Part shown: positions 9,683 to 43,210 of the stretch, piece by piece | How the letters are laid out: each line of letters begins with the position of its first letter | How positions within the stretch are numbered: the stretch's first letter is position 1 | Source: Escherichia phage vB_EcoS Sa179lw | Length of the DNA: 46,833 nucleotides | Reading direction: 5' to 3' (one strand) | Sequence record: NC_054637.1 | Notes under the pieces: model-generated | The model's database searches: none | The model's input: only the letters and a program-made list of their open reading frames with translations | Told to the model about the DNA's origin: nothing | Made by a program: the position numbers and the translations under genes

Positions 9683-9686
9683 ATAA

Positions 9687-9712
9687 AGCCGCACGAAGCG
9701 GCCTTATTACTG
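9687..9712 (+). terminator. Candidate terminator
   Basis: Hairpin GCCGCACGAAGCGGC followed by a weak T tract. Confidence 0.4.
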
Positions 9713-9736
9713 GTTTAAGCATTGCCAGCGTGCTTT

Positions 9737-9801
9737 CTTAACATCCAGCCCCGTACCCATACATACCCCTACATATGATTGCGATAATGCTGGATGTTAA
9801 G
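9737..9801. repeat. Perfect 13-bp inverted repeat (CTTAACATCCAGC / GCTGGATGTTAAG) separated by 39 bp
   Basis: Read directly; lies in a 540-bp non-coding gap. Confidence 0.85.
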
Positions 9802-10174
9802 TGTTGTGGCTCTGGTGCCTCCAGATTGCTGGTCGGTAAATCCAGCAGGCAATCGCAAAACCAAATGGAGTGTATCTTTACCTTGCCGCGTGCGCATAGC
9901 CGCATTACCACAACGGAAAGAGCACTGAGACAAACGTCTTTGTCGCCTGCGCAAAGGGTTCGAGTTCCACTGATATGCGCCAATGCCCTCACCTGTTGTG
10001 CGCCCATTATTAATCACACCGGGCCAGTGCGCCGAATTTGTTTACAAGGAATCGGAAGACCTTGCTGATTTACAGGTTATTACGCCGCCATCAGAACAAC
10101 ATCATCGTTTGCATTTATCTTTGTGGTCAGTTTCTAAAAACCCGCAAAGTCGCTCACGAAAACTATCTGAAATA

Positions 10175-10222
10175 CAATCTACACCACAAAATAATACCTG
10201 TCAACACCTGTGATATAATCAC
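10175..10222 (+). promoter_or_regulatory. Candidate late promoter for the major tail gene: AATCTACACCAC ... TGTCAACACC ... TGATATAAT (extended -10)
   Basis: Extended -10 TGA+TATAAT at 10211-10219; poor -35; same architecture as 12184-12234. Confidence 0.5.
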
Positions 10223-10255
10223 CACGTTAGCAGCTAACACAATTCGGAGATCGAA

Positions 10256-10972
10256 ATGGCTATTTGTGCAAATGATAAAGGAGTTCTGGTCGGTCGCATG
10301 ACCAGACTGTTCCTTGCTGAAGGGTGCGGTGACGCAGTTCCGGAGGCAGGAGACTGGAAGTATTTAGGTTCAACCACCAGTAAAGGAGTTGACTACTCGC
10401 CGCAGACCACTACGTCGGAAGCGGATACCGCTGGCGGCTTTGTTTCCACTCTCGTTACCAGCTCTGATATGACCATCAGCGCAGAGGTGGAAATCCGCAA
10501 GAATGACCCGAGCGATGAGTTTGGATTCCATCGTCTTGTTGAGATTTACGCCACTGAACTGAAAGCGCGTCGCCAGCCCTCTCTGTGGGTGCGTCAGGTT
10601 ACTGGTGCAACTATCGTTACCGCGTACTGCAACATTACCAGCATCAGCTACGAAGGTGGCACGAACGACATCGTCACTGGCAGCCTTGAGTTCAAGGTTT
10701 ACGATTCTGACAGCGTTACCGTCGAAAGCCTTGAACCTCTGGCATTCACTACCGACCTGCAATCAACTGGTAGCACTGGCAGCCCGTTAACTGTTGCTGT
10801 TGAAGGTGGCGTTGCTCCTTACACTTATGTATGGCGCAAAGATGGTGTGGTTGTTGGTAGTGAGTCTGGCGCTTCACTGGCAAGCCCAACCGCTGGCGTG
10901 TATACAGTTACCGTTACCGACTCATCTACTGACCCTGAAATTATTATCAGTACGGCCTGCACAGTATCCTGA
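10256..10972 (+). CDS. Major tail protein with C-terminal Ig-like domain, 238 aa
   Basis: Position upstream of tail assembly and tape measure genes; C-terminal segment VAPYTYVWRKDG...GVYTVTVTDS is Ig-like. Confidence 0.6.
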   Translation: MAICANDKGVLVGRMTRLFLAEGCGDAVPEAGDWKYLGSTTSKGVDYSPQTTTSEADTAGGFVSTLVTSSDMTISAEVEIRKNDPSDEFGFHRLVEIYATELKARRQPSLWVRQVTGATIVTAYCNITSISYEGGTNDIVTGSLEFKVYDSDSVTVESLEPLAFTTDLQSTGSTGSPLTVAVEGGVAPYTYVWRKDGVVVGSESGASLASPTAGVYTVTVTDSSTDPEIIISTACTVS

Positions 10973-10975
10973 TAA

Positions 10976-11008
10976 AGAAAAAGCCCCGAAAGGGGCTTTG
11001 TTTATTCT
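10976..11008. terminator. Bidirectional terminator
   Basis: Hairpin AAAGCCCCGAAAGGGGCTTT followed by GTTTATT. Confidence 0.7.
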
Positions 11009-11199
11009 TGTGGAGGTCCCGGTAGCGGCATCCAGTGGTCGAAGGTGGTCTGTGCTAATTCATCATATTCGTTGTACCAGTCACTCCATGACTCCCCATC
11101 CCAACAAAAAACATTTTTCTGCACTACCTCATTCACGCATACCAAAACAGCGACGTTCGTAGGAGGCATCATCTCACTACACTTAATCCACTGGCTCAT
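11002..11199 (-). CDS. DUF551-like small protein, 65 aa
   Basis: W-rich translation ending DHWMPLPGPP, as recalled for DUF551 phage proteins. Confidence 0.55.
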   Translation of the reverse strand: MSQWIKCSEMMPPTNVAVLVCVNEVVQKNVFCWDGESWSDWYNEYDELAQTTFDHWMPLPGPPQE

Positions 11200-11486
11200 A
11201 ATCCTTCCTCATTCATCTTCAGGAAAACAATCATGGCGGCGCGTAGTGGGTTTCTGTCTTCAGTGGTGAACTTTGAAGCCACGCCAAATGCCGTTGGCCA
11301 AGCCTGTGGGATGGTGTATTGATATGGCACGACTGCGATATGGTTTTCAACAATAATAGGCCATGCATCAGCTGGGTTGCTGCAGTAGTCTTTTGCCTTA
11401 AATGAATTCAATCCTGAAATTTGCATAATCTCTGCGTGCACACGGCAGTTAATTTCAAAATCACTCATCTCTTCATAATTTTTCAT
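11196..11486 (-). CDS. Hypothetical protein, 96 aa
   Basis: ORF track; overlapping start/stop. Confidence 0.45.
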   Translation of the reverse strand: MKNYEEMSDFEINCRVHAEIMQISGLNSFKAKDYCSNPADAWPIIVENHIAVVPYQYTIPQAWPTAFGVASKFTTEDRNPLRAAMIVFLKMNEEGL

Positions 11487-11626
11487 ATCACCTTATCCTC
11501 ATCAAAAATCACACCAATCACACGAAGCAAGTCTTTCGCCATGCGCTCAGCCTCTTCGTAATCGTAACCTGCATCAACATACAGCTCTGTGTAGAAAATC
11601 AGGTCTGATTTTGTTTGTTCGTTCAT
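11483..11626 (-). CDS. Hypothetical acidic protein, 47 aa
   Basis: Manual translation MNEQTKSDLIFYTELYVDAGYDYEEAERMAKDLL...; coupled to neighbours. Confidence 0.3.
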   Translation of the reverse strand: MNEQTKSDLIFYTELYVDAGYDYEEAERMAKDLLRVIGVIFDEDKVI

Positions 11627-11829
11627 TTCTTGTCGCCACTGTTAACTAATGCCCAAACAAGTGCTGCAACCCAACCAATAAAGCTCCATCCGACAAGAAT
11701 ATTCAGCACACAGATTGCGGTAGTATTTGTATGCTTTCTTTGCAATGCCACAAATGATGGGAGAAGATAAGCAAATATCACCAATCCAGCGAAAAACAAC
11801 AAAATAACAACGTCCATAGCTAACCTCAA
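11623..11829 (-). CDS. Small membrane protein, 68 aa, two hydrophobic segments
   Basis: Translation VVILLFFAGLVIFAYLL and ILVGWSFIGWVAALVWALV. Confidence 0.5.
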   Translation of the reverse strand: MRLAMDVVILLFFAGLVIFAYLLPSFVALQRKHTNTTAICVLNILVGWSFIGWVAALVWALVNSGDKK

Positions 11830-11849
11830 CTGTTAATAACTTGTTTATA

Positions 11850-12143
11850 TTACATGCCATTCTTTTCGCACAAAGCAACAGATACATCACGCAATTGCTC
11901 TTTGGTCATATCATTGCGTGCATAAACCATTTCTACGATAGCAAGGCCGATTATTTCTGCTGATTCGTTGTTTTTTGTGGAACCCTTAACTACCACCTCG
12001 GCAAGATTCTTGCTGATACCGTTATCTCGAGCATCGGCAGTGTTCATGGCGACTTCTCCGATGCTTTTACAAACCTCAGAGGTTGCACTCACCGCAAAGG
12101 AGGAAGCAAACAGCACTGATGCAATCAACATTTTAATTTTCAT
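11850..12143 (-). CDS. Secreted or periplasmic protein with N-terminal signal peptide, 97 aa
   Basis: MKIKMLIASVLFASSFAVSA signal-like N-terminus; RBS GAGGTGAG. Confidence 0.55.
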   Translation of the reverse strand: MKIKMLIASVLFASSFAVSATSEVCKSIGEVAMNTADARDNGISKNLAEVVVKGSTKNNESAEIIGLAIVEMVYARNDMTKEQLRDVSVALCEKNGM

Positions 12144-12183
12144 AACTCACCTCATTTATTCATCACTCGTTTCGATGACTTTA

Positions 12184-12234
12184 ATCTACATCACCACCTC
12201 ACAGGTGTCAACACCACCGAGATGATATAATCAA
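12184..12234 (+). promoter_or_regulatory. Candidate late promoter for the tail assembly / tape measure operon; same architecture as 10175-10222
   Basis: AATCTACATCACC ... TGTCAACACC ... TGATATAAT at 12223-12231. Confidence 0.5.
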
Positions 12235-12251: not shown

Positions 12252-12968
12252 ATGCAAAACATGAGCAATCGCACGCCACTAACAGAAATCGGAGAGATGC
12301 GCATCTCGCTTTCTGACAGGAGTTTTTTCTTTAAGCCATCATTCCGCGCCATGAATGAAATCGGCACACCAAAAGAAATCGTAGAGGTGTACGCAAGACT
12401 CAATGGCATTGATTATGTTGCGCCATTGCAGCACGTCGAATACCTGCCATTTGGCGCTCAGATGCAGGTTATGAAGACCATTAGCAAGCCTGTGTATGGT
12501 CGACACGTGCTGAGTGCCGCCTATATCGTCATGCAGTCATGCTGTGAAGATGATATTTCTGTGCTGATTGGTGGATGGAAGCCAACGCCGCGCGGCGTGC
12601 GATACGTTCCCGGCATCATGCCAGTGAGCGACATTATTATTATTGCGCGCAACCTGATGCAGCATGGCATCATCGGCAAATCACCACTCAAAGTTCCTGA
12701 ACGTCTGGAAGAGCAGGGCAAGAAAACCACAAACGAATTTCATGCGTCACAGTACATTATCTCAGCGCGCACGCATTTCGACATGACGCGTGATGAGGCT
12801 GAAAACCTGTCCATGACAGAGTTTCAGATGATGATCAAGAATAAATATCCGGAGCCGAAGGGGCTGACAAAAGAAGAGCGCGCGGCAGAGTACGATCAGG
12901 CTAAGGCAGACCGTGAGCGCATGAAGGCACTGGCTGAACGCAAAGCGAAAAAAGCGAGGAATATATAA
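12252..12968 (+). CDS. Putative tail assembly chaperone, 238 aa
   Basis: Immediately upstream of, and coupled (TAATG) to, the tape measure gene. Confidence 0.45.
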   Translation: MQNMSNRTPLTEIGEMRISLSDRSFFFKPSFRAMNEIGTPKEIVEVYARLNGIDYVAPLQHVEYLPFGAQMQVMKTISKPVYGRHVLSAAYIVMQSCCEDDISVLIGGWKPTPRGVRYVPGIMPVSDIIIIARNLMQHGIIGKSPLKVPERLEEQGKKTTNEFHASQYIISARTHFDMTRDEAENLSMTEFQMMIKNKYPEPKGLTKEERAAEYDQAKADRERMKALAERKAKKARNI

Positions 12969-15910: not shown

Positions 15911-19711
<3,801 letters not shown>

Positions 19712-30789: not shown

Positions 30790-30825
30790 GCATTGACGTA
30801 GAATCATTGTTGATGTAGATTAAAA
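30790..30825 (+). promoter_or_regulatory. Rightward early promoter: TTGACG, 17-bp spacer, TAGATT
   Basis: -35 at 30793-30798, -10 at 30816-30821; carries inverted copies of the ATCTAC(A/G)TC motif. Confidence 0.6.
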
Positions 30826-30851: not shown

Positions 30852-30998
30852 ATGGAAATCAAAGACCGTGAAGAATTTGAAGATGCACAGGCTATGGCGC
30901 GAATTGCTATTGATCGCACAAACAACAGCATTCCAGCAGAAGCATTCTGGAACGCAGCAATGCAGGCTTTAATCTCAGCGTATGGGCTTAGCAAATGA
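30852..30998 (+). CDS. Hypothetical early protein, 48 aa
   Basis: Manual translation MEIKDREEFEDAQAMARIAIDRTNN...; first ORF after the promoter. Confidence 0.45.
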   Translation: MEIKDREEFEDAQAMARIAIDRTNNSIPAEAFWNAAMQALISAYGLSK

Positions 30999-35767: not shown

Positions 35768-35800
35768 TAAATCTACATCACCAACATATCTACGTCAACA
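35768..35800 (-). promoter_or_regulatory. Leftward early promoter: TTGACG, 17-bp spacer, TAGATT (minus strand)
   Basis: -35 at 35793-35798, -10 at 35770-35775 on the minus strand. Confidence 0.55.
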
Positions 35801-41627: not shown

Positions 41628-41906
41628 ATGAAACTATCGCGACGCGGCAAAGAGACGCTTGGAATCACCGATGCCGTGGATATATCGCCTTACATCACCA
41701 CCGAGACGACACAGAATCAGTTTGATGCGCTGACGAGCCTTGCTACTGACATTGGCATTGACGTGTTCCGTAAATCAACGCTTCTGAAGAAGCACAATCT
41801 CCGCTGCTTCTCATGTGCTGTTGCGCATTTCATCGTGTGGGGCGAGAAGACTGGCGACAAAGCAAAACGCAAAGCTGAAAAAGAGGTTTACTGGTATGGC
41901 TATTAG
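41628..41906 (+). CDS. Hypothetical hydrophilic protein, 92 aa, overlapping the endolysin start
   Basis: RBS AGGAGG before ATG 41628; no transmembrane segment seen. Confidence 0.5.
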   Translation: MKLSRRGKETLGITDAVDISPYITTETTQNQFDALTSLATDIGIDVFRKSTLLKKHNLRCFSCAVAHFIVWGEKTGDKAKRKAEKEVYWYGY

Positions 41907-42360
41907 CAAAAACATGAAGGCATTTTTGGATATGCTGGCGTACAGTGAGGGCACGGATAACGGGCGACAGAAAACTAATAATCATGGCTATGATGTGATT
42001 GTTGGTGGCTCACTGTTTACTGACTATTCCGACCACCCACGCAAGCTGATTAGCCTGCCAAATCTGGGTATCAAATCCACTGCCGCCGGGCGCTATCAGG
42101 TGCTGGCTAAGTTCTATGATGCGTACAAAAAGCAGTTGCGCCTGCCTGACTTCTCTCCCGCATCGCAGGACGCTATTGCAATACAGCTAATTCGTGAATG
42201 CAAAGCCACCGCCGATATTGAGGCTGGTCGCATTGCTGATGCTATTCATAAATGCCGTTCCCGCTGGGCCTCACTGCCGGGCGCTGGTTATGGTCAGCAT
42301 GAGCAAAAACTGGATAAGCTGATTCAGGTGTACAAGTCCGCTGGCGGGACGGTCGCATGA
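41896..42360 (+). CDS. R: Endolysin, lambda R-like lytic transglycosylase, 154 aa
   Basis: KAFLDMLAYSEGTDNGRQKT.NHGYDVIVGG.LFTDYSDHPRKL and WASLPGAGYGQ match the lambda R sequence as recalled. Confidence 0.85.
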   Translation: MAISKNMKAFLDMLAYSEGTDNGRQKTNNHGYDVIVGGSLFTDYSDHPRKLISLPNLGIKSTAAGRYQVLAKFYDAYKKQLRLPDFSPASQDAIAIQLIRECKATADIEAGRIADAIHKCRSRWASLPGAGYGQHEQKLDKLIQVYKSAGGTVA

Positions 42361-42596
42361 AAAAGCTAAGCAACTGGCTGCTTGGCCTGTGGATTTCATT
42401 CTGCTCGCTATTGCAGATATGGCCTGAGTCCATGCTTTATGTGTGGGCCATGATGCCGGACGACCTGAAATCTGCGCTGCCACCTTTTGCTGTTAAAGGG
42501 GTCAGTTATTCCGTTATGCTGGCGGCGATTCTTGGCAAGATGCATGCGATGAATAAGGCGAATAAGAGGCTAAAAGATGAGAGTAATGATGCGTGA
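42357..42596 (+). CDS. Candidate holin (two hydrophobic segments, charged C-terminus), 79 aa
   Basis: Hydrophobic segments LSNWLLGLWISFCSLLQIW and VSYSVMLAAILG; ATGA coupling to the endolysin gene. Confidence 0.45.
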   Translation: MKKLSNWLLGLWISFCSLLQIWPESMLYVWAMMPDDLKSALPPFAVKGVSYSVMLAAILGKMHAMNKANKRLKDESNDA

Positions 42597-42718
42597 AATA
42601 CATAAGTCCATAAAGGCGCGAGGTGGTTTTTATTCTGCATATCAGACCACCAAGGGATTGCACCTCATAACCAATTGCATGGCATTCCCACATCTGTGGC
42701 TGGCGGGAGCACTGAAAG

Positions 42719-43210
42719 ATGATGGCAATTCTCACTAAATACTGGCGACCGCTGGCAATTATTATAATTGTCGCTATCTGCGCGCTATGGGTTGTTAACA
42801 AGGTGTCCAGCTATGGTGAGCAGAGATACAACGACGGGTATGCGAAGGCTGTAGCAGAACAGAAGGCCGCAAACAAAAAAGAGGAGCAACGACGCAATGC
42901 AGAACTGCAAAAGATTCAGGCTGACGCACAACAAAGGATTGATGCTGCGCGCAACGATGCTGTCAACGCTGCTGCTAAGTCTGGCAGGTTGCAGCAACAG
43001 CTCGCAAATATCCGCAAGCAGCTTGTCGGATATTCCGCCGCTGAGTTCATTGGCAATCCAGCCGCAGAAACCGGAGTTTTGCTTGCCGACGTGCTCAGCA
43101 AATCTGTCGAAAGAAATCGACAGCTGGCAGATTACGCTGACAGGGCAAGAGAAGCAGGATTAGCGTGTGAGGCGCAGTACAATTCGCTGCGCAATAAAAA
43201 AGCCCCGTAA
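42719..43210 (+). CDS. Rz: Rz-like i-spanin, 163 aa
   Basis: N-terminal TM segment followed by coiled-coil-like Q/A/R/E-rich periplasmic domain; position after the endolysin. Confidence 0.65.
   Translation: MMAILTKYWRPLAIIIIVAICALWVVNKVSSYGEQRYNDGYAKAVAEQKAANKKEEQRRNAELQKIQADAQQRIDAARNDAVNAAAKSGRLQQQLANIRKQLVGYSAAEFIGNPAAETGVLLADVLSKSVERNRQLADYADRAREAGLACEAQYNSLRNKKAP
42942..43163 (+). CDS. Rz1: Rz1-like o-spanin lipoprotein, embedded in the +1 frame of the Rz-like gene
   Basis: Lipobox-like LSLAGC followed by a Pro-rich segment; entirely within the Rz-like gene. Confidence 0.55.
   Translation: MLRATMLSTLLLSLAGCSNSSQISASSLSDIPPLSSLAIQPQKPEFCLPTCSANLSKEIDSWQITLTGQEKQD

What the first reader, a model, noticed from the sequence alone, without database searches (positions are those of the whole stretch)
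11002..12143. Minus-strand cassette between tail genes encoding a secreted protein and a small membrane protein
Between the major tail gene and the tail assembly genes, five minus-strand ORFs are bounded by a terminator at 10976-11008: a 97-aa protein with a clear signal peptide (MKIKMLIASVLFASSFAVSA), a 68-aa two-segment membrane protein, two small proteins and a DUF551-like protein. Envelope-targeted accessory proteins at this position are typical of superinfection-exclusion or receptor-blocking functions (for example Cor-like proteins).
Basis: inference. Interest (0 to 1): 0.45.

Follow-up and report, generated by a model that had tools for sequence, protein, structure and literature searches.

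The report
Early accessory operon with Imm homologue
A small backwards-facing operon inside the tail genes of a virulent Salmonella/E. coli phage encodes a relative of the phage T4 protein Imm, which blocks entry of a second phage's DNA, plus an uncharacterised exported protein; the Imm part is already annotated in related phages, so most of this is ordinary.

Summary
Five translationally linked minus-strand genes lie between the major tail gene and the DUF6246/tape-measure genes. They run from a conserved sigma-70-type promoter (12211..12183) to a conserved bidirectional terminator (10980-10999).

The window is a virulent Skatevirus-type siphophage.

- **Membrane protein:** probably 64 aa from ATG 11817, not 68. 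It is a clear homologue of T4 Imm (Pfam PF14373, 65.7 bits; 36% identity to T4 Imm). It keeps the two residues (R27, W44) whose T4 equivalents are needed for exclusion. Relatives already annotate it as "superinfection immunity protein".
- **97-aa protein:** it has a type-I signal peptide and no lipobox. The mature part is predicted as a four-helix domain with two family-invariant cysteines. It has no Pfam family, no named relative and no solved structural relative. It is not related to T4 Spackle, Cor or Llp.
- **Distribution:** across about 150 public relatives the exported gene and imm occur together, or either alone, at the head of the same operon. By junction counts, none appears to lack both.

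Best reading: an early accessory operon for envelope-level superinfection exclusion. The Imm part rests on homology; the 97-aa part is inference only. This is a new member of a known kind, of modest interest.

The parts
12183..12211 (-). Sigma-70-type promoter of the cassette: TTGACA (12211-12206), 17-nt spacer, TAGATT (12188-12183)
   Evidence: 10 of 12 matches. Both hexamers are invariant in 19 genomes while the spacer varies. It is one of four copies of TTGAC[AG]-N17-TAGATT in the window, against 0.31 expected; 0 of 100 shuffles reach four.
11850..12143 (-). Exported 97-aa protein. The signal peptide is aa 1-20 (nt 12143-12084). The mature 77 aa has pI 4.8, a predicted four-helix domain and Cys25/Cys92.
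   Evidence: AF2 model with pLDDT 78-92 over the mature part. C25, R39 and C92 are invariant in distant relatives. phrog_2315, unknown function. dN/dS 0.12.
11623..11817 (-). T4 Imm-family superinfection immunity homologue, 64 aa, with two hydrophobic segments. The mechanical ORF extends to the TTG at 11829.
   Evidence: PF14373 E 3.4e-18. phrog_1039. BLASTP against T4 Imm: 36% identity over 53 aa. R27 and W44 align with T4 R33 and W50. dN/dS 0.05.
11483..11626 (-). 47-aa acidic cytoplasmic protein of unknown function. It is the most conserved gene of the cassette.
   Evidence: phrog_17424 E 1e-36. 94-100% identity in 19 genomes, dN/dS 0.045. Also present at the same site in Roufvirus-like phages.
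11196..11486 (-). NinX-like 96-aa protein of unknown function. It is a variable member of the cassette.
   Evidence: PF10765 E 4.8e-11. Present in 7 of 19 genomes at 37-65% identity.
11002..11199 (-). DUF551 65-aa protein of unknown function. It is present in every genome compared but very divergent.
   Evidence: PF04448 E 1.7e-12. 19 of 19 genomes at 32-55% identity.
10976..11008 (.). Bidirectional intrinsic terminator (hairpin 10980-10999) shared by the converging major tail gene and the cassette
   Evidence: AAAGCCCCTTTCGGGGCTTTT is present in 19 of 19 genomes.
12223..12231 (+). Extended -10 element TGaTATAAT facing the DUF6246/tape-measure genes, back to back with the cassette promoter. 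This is context: it would restart tail transcription after the cassette.
   Evidence: Read from the sequence. Invariant in 19 genomes. The same TGTCAACACC..TGATATAAT arrangement precedes the major tail gene at 10199-10231. Function is inferred.

Best explanation
The region is a self-contained accessory operon of a virulent Skatevirus-type phage. It is read by host RNA polymerase from a conserved sigma-70 promoter. That promoter belongs to the class that also heads the phage's long block of small, presumably early, genes. The operon ends at a bidirectional terminator.

**Membrane protein (Imm homologue).** Its two envelope-targeted products most likely protect the already infected cell against further infection. 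The 64-aa protein inserts into the inner membrane. Like T4 Imm, it would bind the tape-measure protein of an incoming tail, so the tape measure cannot open a channel and the DNA stays outside the cytoplasm. Homology is shown; the activity is inferred.

**97-aa protein.** It is exported by the Sec pathway, cleaved after residue 20, and folds in the periplasm into a small acidic four-helix domain stapled by one disulfide. I propose it is a second, independent periplasmic layer of the same defence. That would make it a functional analogue, but not a relative, of T4 Spackle, with an unknown target. This step is inference from context only.

**Other three products.** The 47-aa, NinX-like and DUF551 proteins are cytoplasmic and of unknown function.
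For: **Operon anatomy**
- Promoter, ribosome-binding sites, ATGA overlaps and terminator are all present.
- The promoter hexamers and the terminator are invariant in 19 genomes, while the spacer and the last gene vary.
- G+C is 42.7% in the cassette against 49% in the flanks.

**Promoter class**
- There are four copies in the window. One, at 30793, heads the block of small genes 30852 onward and shares the initial transcribed sequence with the cassette promoter.

**Virulent lifestyle**
-.

**Imm homologue**
- PF14373 at 65.7 bits.
- 36% identity to T4 Imm and 52% to the Imm of Roufvirus pYD38-A, which sits at the same genomic site.
- T4 Imm leaves superinfecting DNA in the periplasm (annotation).
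- A 2026 preprint reports that T4 Imm binds the tape measure, and that R33A and W50A weaken exclusion. Both residues are conserved here as R27 and W44.
- The window's tape measure has hydrophobic segments at aa 257-285 and 837-869.

**97-aa protein**
- Signal peptide without a lipobox.
- Both cysteines are invariant at 27-36% identity.
- Confident helical model.
- Gross properties match Spackle: 97-aa precursor, mature protein of about 75 aa, helical bundle, one disulfide, pI about 4.7.
- Distant relatives sit among early or replication genes of other phages.

**Census across about 150 records**
- Exported gene plus imm: about 29 records.
- Exported gene alone: about 91 records, of which about 71 are laboratory mutants of one phage.
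- imm alone, fused to the same leader: at least 17 records.
- A divergent 112-aa exported allele: 12 records.
- These sum to about the whole set, so no record appears to lack both.
Against: - No experiment exists for any Skatevirus gene of this cassette.
- PF14373 is a very broad family: 1790 phage records, including mycobacteriophages. Exclusion has been tested only for T4.
- The 97-aa protein shows no sequence or fold similarity to Spackle or to any characterised protein.
- No gp5-type tail lysozyme was found in the six tail proteins scanned. The only candidate wall hydrolase among them is an NlpC/P60 protein.
- dN/dS along the 97-aa gene is uniformly about 0.1, with no sign of an arms race.
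- In all listed genome-reduced seszw mutants (at least 57), down to 36 kb, the exported gene and its two neighbours were never lost. That is unexpected for a purely dispensable exclusion factor.
- Early timing is inferred from promoter similarity, not measured.
- The either/or/both pattern could equally reflect unrelated cargo genes sharing one insertion site.
Confidence: 0.55

Rival explanations
1. The 97-aa exported protein is a lysis-related factor, for example a periplasmic regulator of lysis timing or a wall-hydrolase inhibitor serving the phage's own lysis, and not an exclusion factor.
For: - In Klebsiella and Aeromonas Roufvirus-like phages the homologue (30-35% identity) is the first gene of a small operon that starts about 100 bp from, and diverges from, the endolysin-holin-spanin cassette.
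- T4 has a precedent for a small periplasmic lysis regulator, RI (own knowledge).
Against: - In Skatevirus the gene is about 30 kb from the lysis cassette at 41628-43210.
- The endolysins seen (lambda-R-like here, T4-lysozyme-like in KP591P3) have no N-terminal membrane or signal segment. There would be no periplasmic pool to regulate before holin triggering.
- The holins are only 76-81 aa, which leaves little room for a periplasmic domain that a regulator could bind (my inference).
- Other distant relatives lie next to DNA polymerase and nuclease genes instead.
Confidence: 0.12
2. The exported protein is a Cor/Llp-type receptor blocker that masks an outer-membrane receptor.
For: It is envelope-targeted, small and phage-encoded. 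This is analogy only.
Against: - There is no lipobox, whereas Llp, and Cor as predicted, are lipoproteins.
- The gene is not next to the central tail fibre and receptor-binding genes, where such factors lie in small siphoviruses.
- Skatevirus isolates depend on O-antigen recognised by a tailspike and carry no porin-binding protein.
- The fold is helical and unrelated to any solved structure.
Confidence: 0.04
3. The cassette, or at least the exported protein and the 47-aa protein, contributes to productive lytic growth itself, for example envelope conditioning or regulation. Exclusion would then be at most a side effect.
For: - All listed genome-reduced seszw mutants, which lost up to about 20% of the genome, keep the three-gene cassette intact. 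The one checked in detail has no change in it.
- By the authors' own scheme, genes never lost in isolates are not 'non-essential'.
- The 47-aa gene is as conserved as the major tail gene and is kept at this site across two phage genera.
- By junction counts, no record appears to lack both envelope genes.
Against: - Natural phages lack the 97-aa gene (imm-only type; at least 17 records) or lack imm. Neither gene is individually required.
- It is not known whether these genes were targeted in the genome-reduction screen, because the supplementary tables were not available.
- Serial passage at high phage density may itself select for exclusion functions.
Confidence: 0.2
4. The Imm-family protein here has a function other than exclusion. 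PF14373 proteins would then be generic small membrane proteins, and the T4 activity is a special case.
For: - The family is found in very diverse phages, including those of Gram-positive hosts with different envelopes.
- Only T4 Imm has been tested.
Against: - The conserved core, including the two residues needed for T4 exclusion, is retained.
- The gene comes and goes as a clean single-gene insertion or deletion, as expected for an accessory competitive trait.
- It lies two genes from the tape-measure gene, its presumed target type.
Confidence: 0.15

Closest known systems
Phage T4 Imm (immunity to superinfection; Pfam PF14373)
   Same: - Homologous small inner-membrane protein: 36% identity over the hydrophobic core.
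- The motif Y-x-L-P-x-F-[IV]-A-L-x-R ... W-S-[FI]-I-G-W is conserved.
- R and W at the positions needed for T4 exclusion are kept.
- Encoded by a virulent phage behind a host-type promoter.
   Different: - 64 aa against 83 aa: it lacks T4's C-terminal tail and a few N-terminal residues.
- It is encoded inside the tail module of a siphovirus rather than among replication genes.
- The presumed target would be a siphovirus tape measure unrelated to gp29.
- No functional test exists.
Phage T4 Spackle (Sp, gp61.3)
   Same: - Early-type gene of a virulent phage that also encodes Imm.
- 97-aa precursor with a cleavable signal peptide.
- Mature protein of about 75 aa, acidic, a helical bundle with a single disulfide.
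   Different: - No sequence similarity beyond the signal peptide (hhalign).
- Spackle's target, the gp5 tail lysozyme, has no counterpart found in this phage's tail.
- The resemblance is therefore analogy at most.
HK97 gp15 moron
   Same: - A small inner-membrane protein that blocks DNA entry.
- Encoded as an independent transcription unit inserted in the tail operon next to the tape-measure gene.
- Proposed to act on the incoming tape measure.
   Different: - Unrelated sequence family (YebO-like).
- Expressed from a prophage, whereas this phage is virulent.
- gp15 is a single gene, while this is a five-gene operon present in all relatives. Only imm and the NinX-like gene behave as insertions or deletions.
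Cor (T1, phi80, N15) and Llp (T5) receptor blockers
   Same: Small envelope-targeted proteins of phages that prevent re-infection.
   Different: - They are lipoproteins acting on FhuA at the outer membrane and are encoded next to the receptor-binding genes.
- The protein here has no lipobox and lies elsewhere.
- Its phage group uses O-antigen as receptor.
Vi II-E1 'exported phage protein' (VIP0031) / phrog_2315
   Same: - Same family and same locus.
- The 112-aa allele takes the place of the 97-aa gene in 12 records.
- It was already flagged as exported by the annotators.
   Different: About 33% identity. No function is assigned to either allele.

Membership tests
T4 Imm / PF14373 superinfection immunity family | Significant match to the family profile | tested here: met
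   PF14373 E 3.4e-18, 65.7 bits against a cut-off of 27.9. phrog_1039 E 1.8e-24.
T4 Imm / PF14373 superinfection immunity family | Direct similarity to T4 Imm, including residues required for exclusion | tested here: met
   36% identity over 53 aa, pairwise E 6e-12. T4 R33 and W50 align with R27 and W44.
T4 Imm / PF14373 superinfection immunity family | Small integral membrane protein | tested here: met
   Two hydrophobic stretches with Kyte-Doolittle 19-residue means up to 2.6 and 2.2. The topology itself was not determined.
T4 Imm / PF14373 superinfection immunity family | Blocks DNA entry of superinfecting phage; binds tape measure | not testable with these tools
   Needs plating, adsorption and DNA-entry assays and a binding test.
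T4 Spackle | Sequence homology to Sp | tested here: not met
   hhalign of the family profile against T4 Sp aligns only the signal peptide (probability 21%).
T4 Spackle | Spackle fold | tested here: not met
T4 Spackle | Periplasmic, small, disulfide-bonded helical protein made by a lytic phage | tested here: met
   Signal peptide, invariant Cys pair and four-helix model. This is predicted, not measured.
T4 Spackle | Inhibits the tail-associated lysozyme of incoming phage | not testable with these tools
   None of the six tail proteins scanned has a lysozyme domain. Only an NlpC/P60 protein was found, at 16816-17316.
Cor / Llp receptor-blocking lipoproteins | Lipoprotein signal peptide with a lipobox cysteine | tested here: not met
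   Cleavage is predicted after VSA at residue 20. The residues before Cys25 are S-E-V, which is not a lipobox. The same holds in distant relatives.
Cor / Llp receptor-blocking lipoproteins | Encoded next to receptor-binding genes of a porin-dependent phage | tested here: not met
   The gene lies between the major tail and tape-measure genes. The genus depends on O-antigen through a tailspike.
Moron (independent transcription unit added to a late operon) | Own promoter and terminator, with deviant base composition | tested here: met
   Conserved promoter and terminator. G+C is 42.7% against 49% in the flanks. Promoter activity was not measured.
Moron (independent transcription unit added to a late operon) | Absent from related genomes in which the flanking genes are adjacent | tested here: not met
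   Every Skatevirus and Roufvirus-like genome examined has a cassette at this site. Only imm, the exported gene and the NinX-like gene are individually present or absent.

The most novel reading that the evidence does not exclude
The 97-aa protein would be the first recognisable member of a widespread, uncharacterised class of small exported, disulfide-stapled helical proteins of phages of Gram-negative bacteria. Similar predicted folds occur in Burkholderia, Bordetella, Xanthomonas and Pseudomonas phages.

On this reading it acts in the periplasm as a superinfection-exclusion or envelope-protection factor. It would be a non-homologous counterpart of T4 Spackle for siphoviruses, working alongside or instead of Imm.
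Probability: 0.2. Interest if true: 0.55.

Novelty: new member of a known kind. Interest (0 to 1): 0.3.

Why it matters
Skatevirus-type phages are being developed as Salmonella and E. coli biocontrol agents. Exclusion genes decide whether phages in a cocktail interfere with each other.

The imm homologue gives a simple, testable case of Imm-type exclusion in a siphovirus. Natural imm-plus and imm-minus relatives are already in collections: Bas80 and Bas81 carry it, Bas78 does not.

The exported protein is the only real unknown. If it proves to be a periplasmic exclusion factor, it would give a function to a family that currently has none.

Tried and rejected
**Leads on the 97-aa protein that gave nothing**
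- Cor/Llp-type lipoprotein was rejected: there is no lipobox.
- PADLOC, NCBIfam and Pfam gave nothing for the 97-aa protein. The PDB sequence search gave only a chance-level match.
- Source names for ten distant relatives are all 'hypothetical' or absent.
- The afdb50 fold library was not available.
- A locus search with the divergent family alignment failed because no block was conserved enough.

**Tests with negative results**
- Obligate pairing of the exported gene with imm was rejected. Either gene occurs alone.
- Homology between the 47-aa protein and the 43-aa gene that follows the homologue in Klebsiella phages: no alignment.
- Diversifying selection in the exported protein: none; dN/dS is about 0.1 in every segment.
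- A CRISPR-escape mutation in the seszw cassette, as evidence that it had been targeted: the single difference in the region lies in the major tail gene.
- An RNA element in the cassette: Rfam gave nothing there.

**Caveat on my own sample**
- The '19 of 19' presence of the exported gene is by construction, because those loci were found with that protein as the query. I replaced it with junction-based counts.
Full report
**What the window is.** The region 10900-12300 matches 151 phage records at 80-95% nucleotide identity. Almost all are 45-48 kb Salmonella, Escherichia and Shigella siphophages of the Skatevirus group: Skate, KFS-SE2, KFSST1, Akira, DS8, Sf11 and Bas81. Only three records cover more than 80% of the query, so the cassette is mosaic. 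These phages are described as strictly lytic, with no lysogeny genes. The E. coli isolates depend on O-antigen recognised by a tailspike.

**Checking the observation.** On the left is the major tail protein gene at 10256-10972 (phrog_853, E 1e-86). On the right are a DUF6246 gene at 12252-12968 and the 980-aa tape measure.

The cassette genes are tightly packed. Three junctions are ATGA overlaps. The first gene has a GAGGTGA ribosome-binding site and the second has GAGG.

The membrane-protein ORF is 68 codons from a TTG. However, the ATG at 11817 carries the ribosome-binding site, relatives annotate 195 nt, and the upstream frame is closed in some relatives. The protein is therefore most likely 64 aa.

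The terminator hairpin at 10980-10999 is called on both strands and is present in all 19 genomes compared, with one loop-base change in one of them. Pairwise dN/dS is 0.12 for the 97-aa gene, 0.05 for imm and 0.045 for the 47-aa gene, against 0.046 for the major tail gene. These three are real genes under purifying selection.

**Transcription signals.** A minus-strand TTGACA-17-TAGATT site lies 40 nt upstream of the first ATG. Both hexamers are invariant in 19 genomes while six spacer positions vary, which is the footprint expected of a working promoter.

The pattern TTGAC[AG]-N17-TAGATT occurs four times in the window, against 0.31 expected; none of 100 shuffles reaches four. The copy at 30793 (+) heads the long run of small genes that starts at 30852. 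It shares the -10 context and the first transcribed bases with the cassette promoter.

I therefore infer, without measurement, that the cassette belongs to the phage's early host-polymerase transcription class.

Back to back with the cassette promoter, the plus strand carries an invariant extended -10 (TGaTATAAT, 12223-12231) in front of the DUF6246 and tape-measure genes. The same arrangement precedes the major tail gene. The cassette's G+C is 42.7% against 49% in the flanks.

**The membrane protein.**
- It matches Pfam PF14373 'superinfection immunity protein' at 65.7 bits (cut-off 27.9) and phrog_1039.
- It aligns directly with T4 Imm at 36% identity over 53 residues.
- It is 52% identical to the Imm gene that Roufvirus pYD38-A carries at the same genomic site.

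T4 Imm is annotated as leaving superinfecting DNA in the periplasm. A 2026 preprint reports that it binds the helical-bundle domain of the T4 tape measure and so blocks channel formation. In that work, R33A and W50A reduced exclusion. Both residues are conserved in the window protein as R27 and W44. The window's tape measure has strongly hydrophobic segments at residues 257-285 and 837-869.

Membership in the Imm family is therefore well supported. The activity is inferred. The gene is already annotated this way in several relatives, so this part is not new.

**The 97-aa protein.** It has a classical type-I signal peptide with V-S-A at positions -3 to -1. There is no lipobox before the first cysteine.

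*Family size.* A profile search of 1.84 billion representative proteins found only 20 relatives at E below 1e-3. In these, at 27-36% identity, Cys25, Arg39 and Cys92 are invariant. Asp40, Gly42 and Tyr74 are nearly so. That fits a periplasmic disulfide.

*Predicted fold.* AlphaFold2 gives four helices with block-mean pLDDT of 78-92 over the mature part.

*Fold searches.*
- Foldseek against the PDB has no hit better than E 2.5.
- The only whole-domain resemblance is a weak one to saposin-like proteins.
- In the viral model library it resembles many unnamed 95-125-aa phage proteins from phages of Proteobacteria. It also matches the Vi II-E1 'exported phage protein'.
- It is not related to T4 Spackle by sequence or by fold, although its gross properties are strikingly similar.

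*Annotation.* No library or source gives the family a function.

**Comparative context.** My first sample of 19 genomes was gathered using the 97-aa protein as the query, so its presence there is by construction. In that sample:

| Gene | Genomes (of 19) | Identity to window |
|---|---|---|
| imm | 13 | 89-98% |
| 47-aa gene | 19 | 94-100% |
| NinX-like gene | 7 | 37-65% |
| DUF551 gene | 19 | 32-55% |

. The imm gene is a clean single-gene insertion or deletion between the stop of the first gene and the ATG of the 47-aa gene.

Unbiased junction queries across the phage collection give the following:

| Architecture | Records |
|---|---|
| Exported gene plus imm | about 29 |
| Exported gene directly followed by the 47-aa gene | about 91 (about 71 are laboratory mutants of phage seszw) |
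| imm fused directly to the same leader and start codon, no exported gene | at least 17 |
| Divergent 112-aa exported allele | 12 |

These add up to roughly the 148-152 records that have the locus, so no record appears to lack both envelope genes. GenBank and RefSeq duplicates inflate all of these counts.

The two genes assort independently but occupy the same privileged position. This is what one would expect of alternative or additive solutions to one task, as with T4 Imm and Spackle. It is equally compatible with unrelated cargo sharing one insertion site.

In the sister group of Klebsiella, Vibrio and Aeromonas phages, the site between the major tail and DUF6246 genes also holds an inverted cassette containing the 47-aa gene. 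One of the two examined, pYD38-A, also has imm there. Their homologue of the exported protein instead heads a small operon that diverges from the lysis genes. More distant relatives lie among replication-type genes of other phage-like contigs, and one lies in a Luteibacter chromosome.

**Evidence that cuts the other way.** A published genome-reduction screen removed 53 of 81 genes from the Skatevirus seszw. Yet all of the listed mutant genomes (at least 57), down to about 36 kb, keep the exported gene, the 47-aa gene and the DUF551 gene intact. In the one mutant checked in detail, the cassette has no change at all.

I could not learn whether these genes were targeted, because the supplementary tables are not held. 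Natural imm-only phages show that the exported gene is not essential in general.

There is also no sign of diversifying selection in the exported protein. In addition, none of the six tail proteins scanned has a lysozyme domain that a Spackle-like inhibitor could act on. The only candidate is an NlpC/P60 protein.

**Verdict.** The anatomy is confirmed. It is best described as a conserved, probably early, accessory operon embedded in the tail module.

Its membrane protein is a new member of the known Imm family. It most likely blocks genome entry by engaging the incoming tape measure.

The exported protein is a real, conserved periplasmic protein of unknown function. I rank a Spackle-like, independent exclusion or envelope-protection role first, at roughly one chance in three for that specific claim. 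Behind it come a role in lysis control and a role in productive growth.

The Cor-like reading is not supported. Overall novelty is low to moderate. The only open question worth an experiment is what the exported protein does.

Noticed in passing
window 10176-10204 (-), 12183-12211 (-), 30793-30821 (+), 35770-35798 (-): A phage-specific promoter family, TTGAC[AG]-N17-TAGATT, with extended shared context (..TGrTGTAGATTwAA.TCATCG.AAC). There are four copies against 0.31 expected by chance. The copies at 10204 and 12211 are conserved in nearly all Skatevirus loci fetched.
   Followed up: partly
window 10176-10231 and 12183-12231: A duplicated back-to-back divergent promoter module. A minus-strand -35/-10 promoter abuts a plus-strand TGTCAACACC..TGATATAAT extended -10 just upstream of a structural gene (major tail gene at 10256; DUF6246 at 12252). 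This suggests that each inverted accessory cassette comes with a restart promoter for the tail genes.
   Followed up: partly
window 9683-10255: A 570-bp stretch between the tail terminator and major tail genes. Its conserved minus-strand promoter (10204) has no annotated minus-strand gene behind it. Relatives carry minus-strand tRNA genes and an HNH gene further on, but this window has no tRNA (ARAGORN). It has only sub-threshold tmRNA-like Rfam hits at 10031-10220 (28 and 18 bits). A second hairpin terminator lies at about 9686-9706.
   Followed up: partly
window 11483-11626; L040 2501-2632; L041 2495-2629: The 47-aa acidic protein is the one constant gene of the inverted cassette between the major tail and DUF6246 genes. 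It is present in both Skatevirus and Roufvirus-like phages (45-62% identity across genera) and is as constrained as the major tail protein. Its function is unknown.
   Followed up: partly
Phage seszw mutant records, e.g. L039 (MZ375354.1) and L011 (Seszw_1): Laboratory genome-reduced seszw mutants (36-46 kb) all retain the exported-protein, 47-aa and DUF551 genes unchanged. By the authors' criteria this would class them as not 'non-essential'. Whether they were targeted could not be checked.
   Followed up: partly
window 41628-41906 and 41896-42360: Two adjacent lysozyme-family ORFs lie at the head of the lysis cassette. One is a 92-aa fragment-like ORF matching only the middle of the Pfam Phage_lysozyme profile. 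The other is a full-length lambda-R-like endolysin of 154 aa. Relatives annotate both as 'endolysin'.
   Followed up: no
window 16816-17316: A minor tail protein with an NlpC/P60 peptidase domain (E 1.5e-8). It is the only candidate cell-wall hydrolase found among the six tail proteins scanned.
   Followed up: no
Phage records OR544125.1 (Acinetobacter phage vB_AbaM_AB4P2) and KX523699.2 (Salmonella phage IME207, host given as Klebsiella pneumoniae): Both match the Skatevirus cassette leader and imm junction at 94% identity, even though their host labels fall outside Salmonella and Escherichia. This could be mislabelling, contamination, or an unusually broad distribution.
   Followed up: no
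L043 (Escherichia phage 6947) 1262-1345: In imm-only phages the imm coding sequence is joined exactly to the leader, ribosome-binding site and ATG otherwise used by the exported-protein gene. This is a precise gene-for-gene replacement, or a deletion, at the head of the operon.
   Followed up: yes
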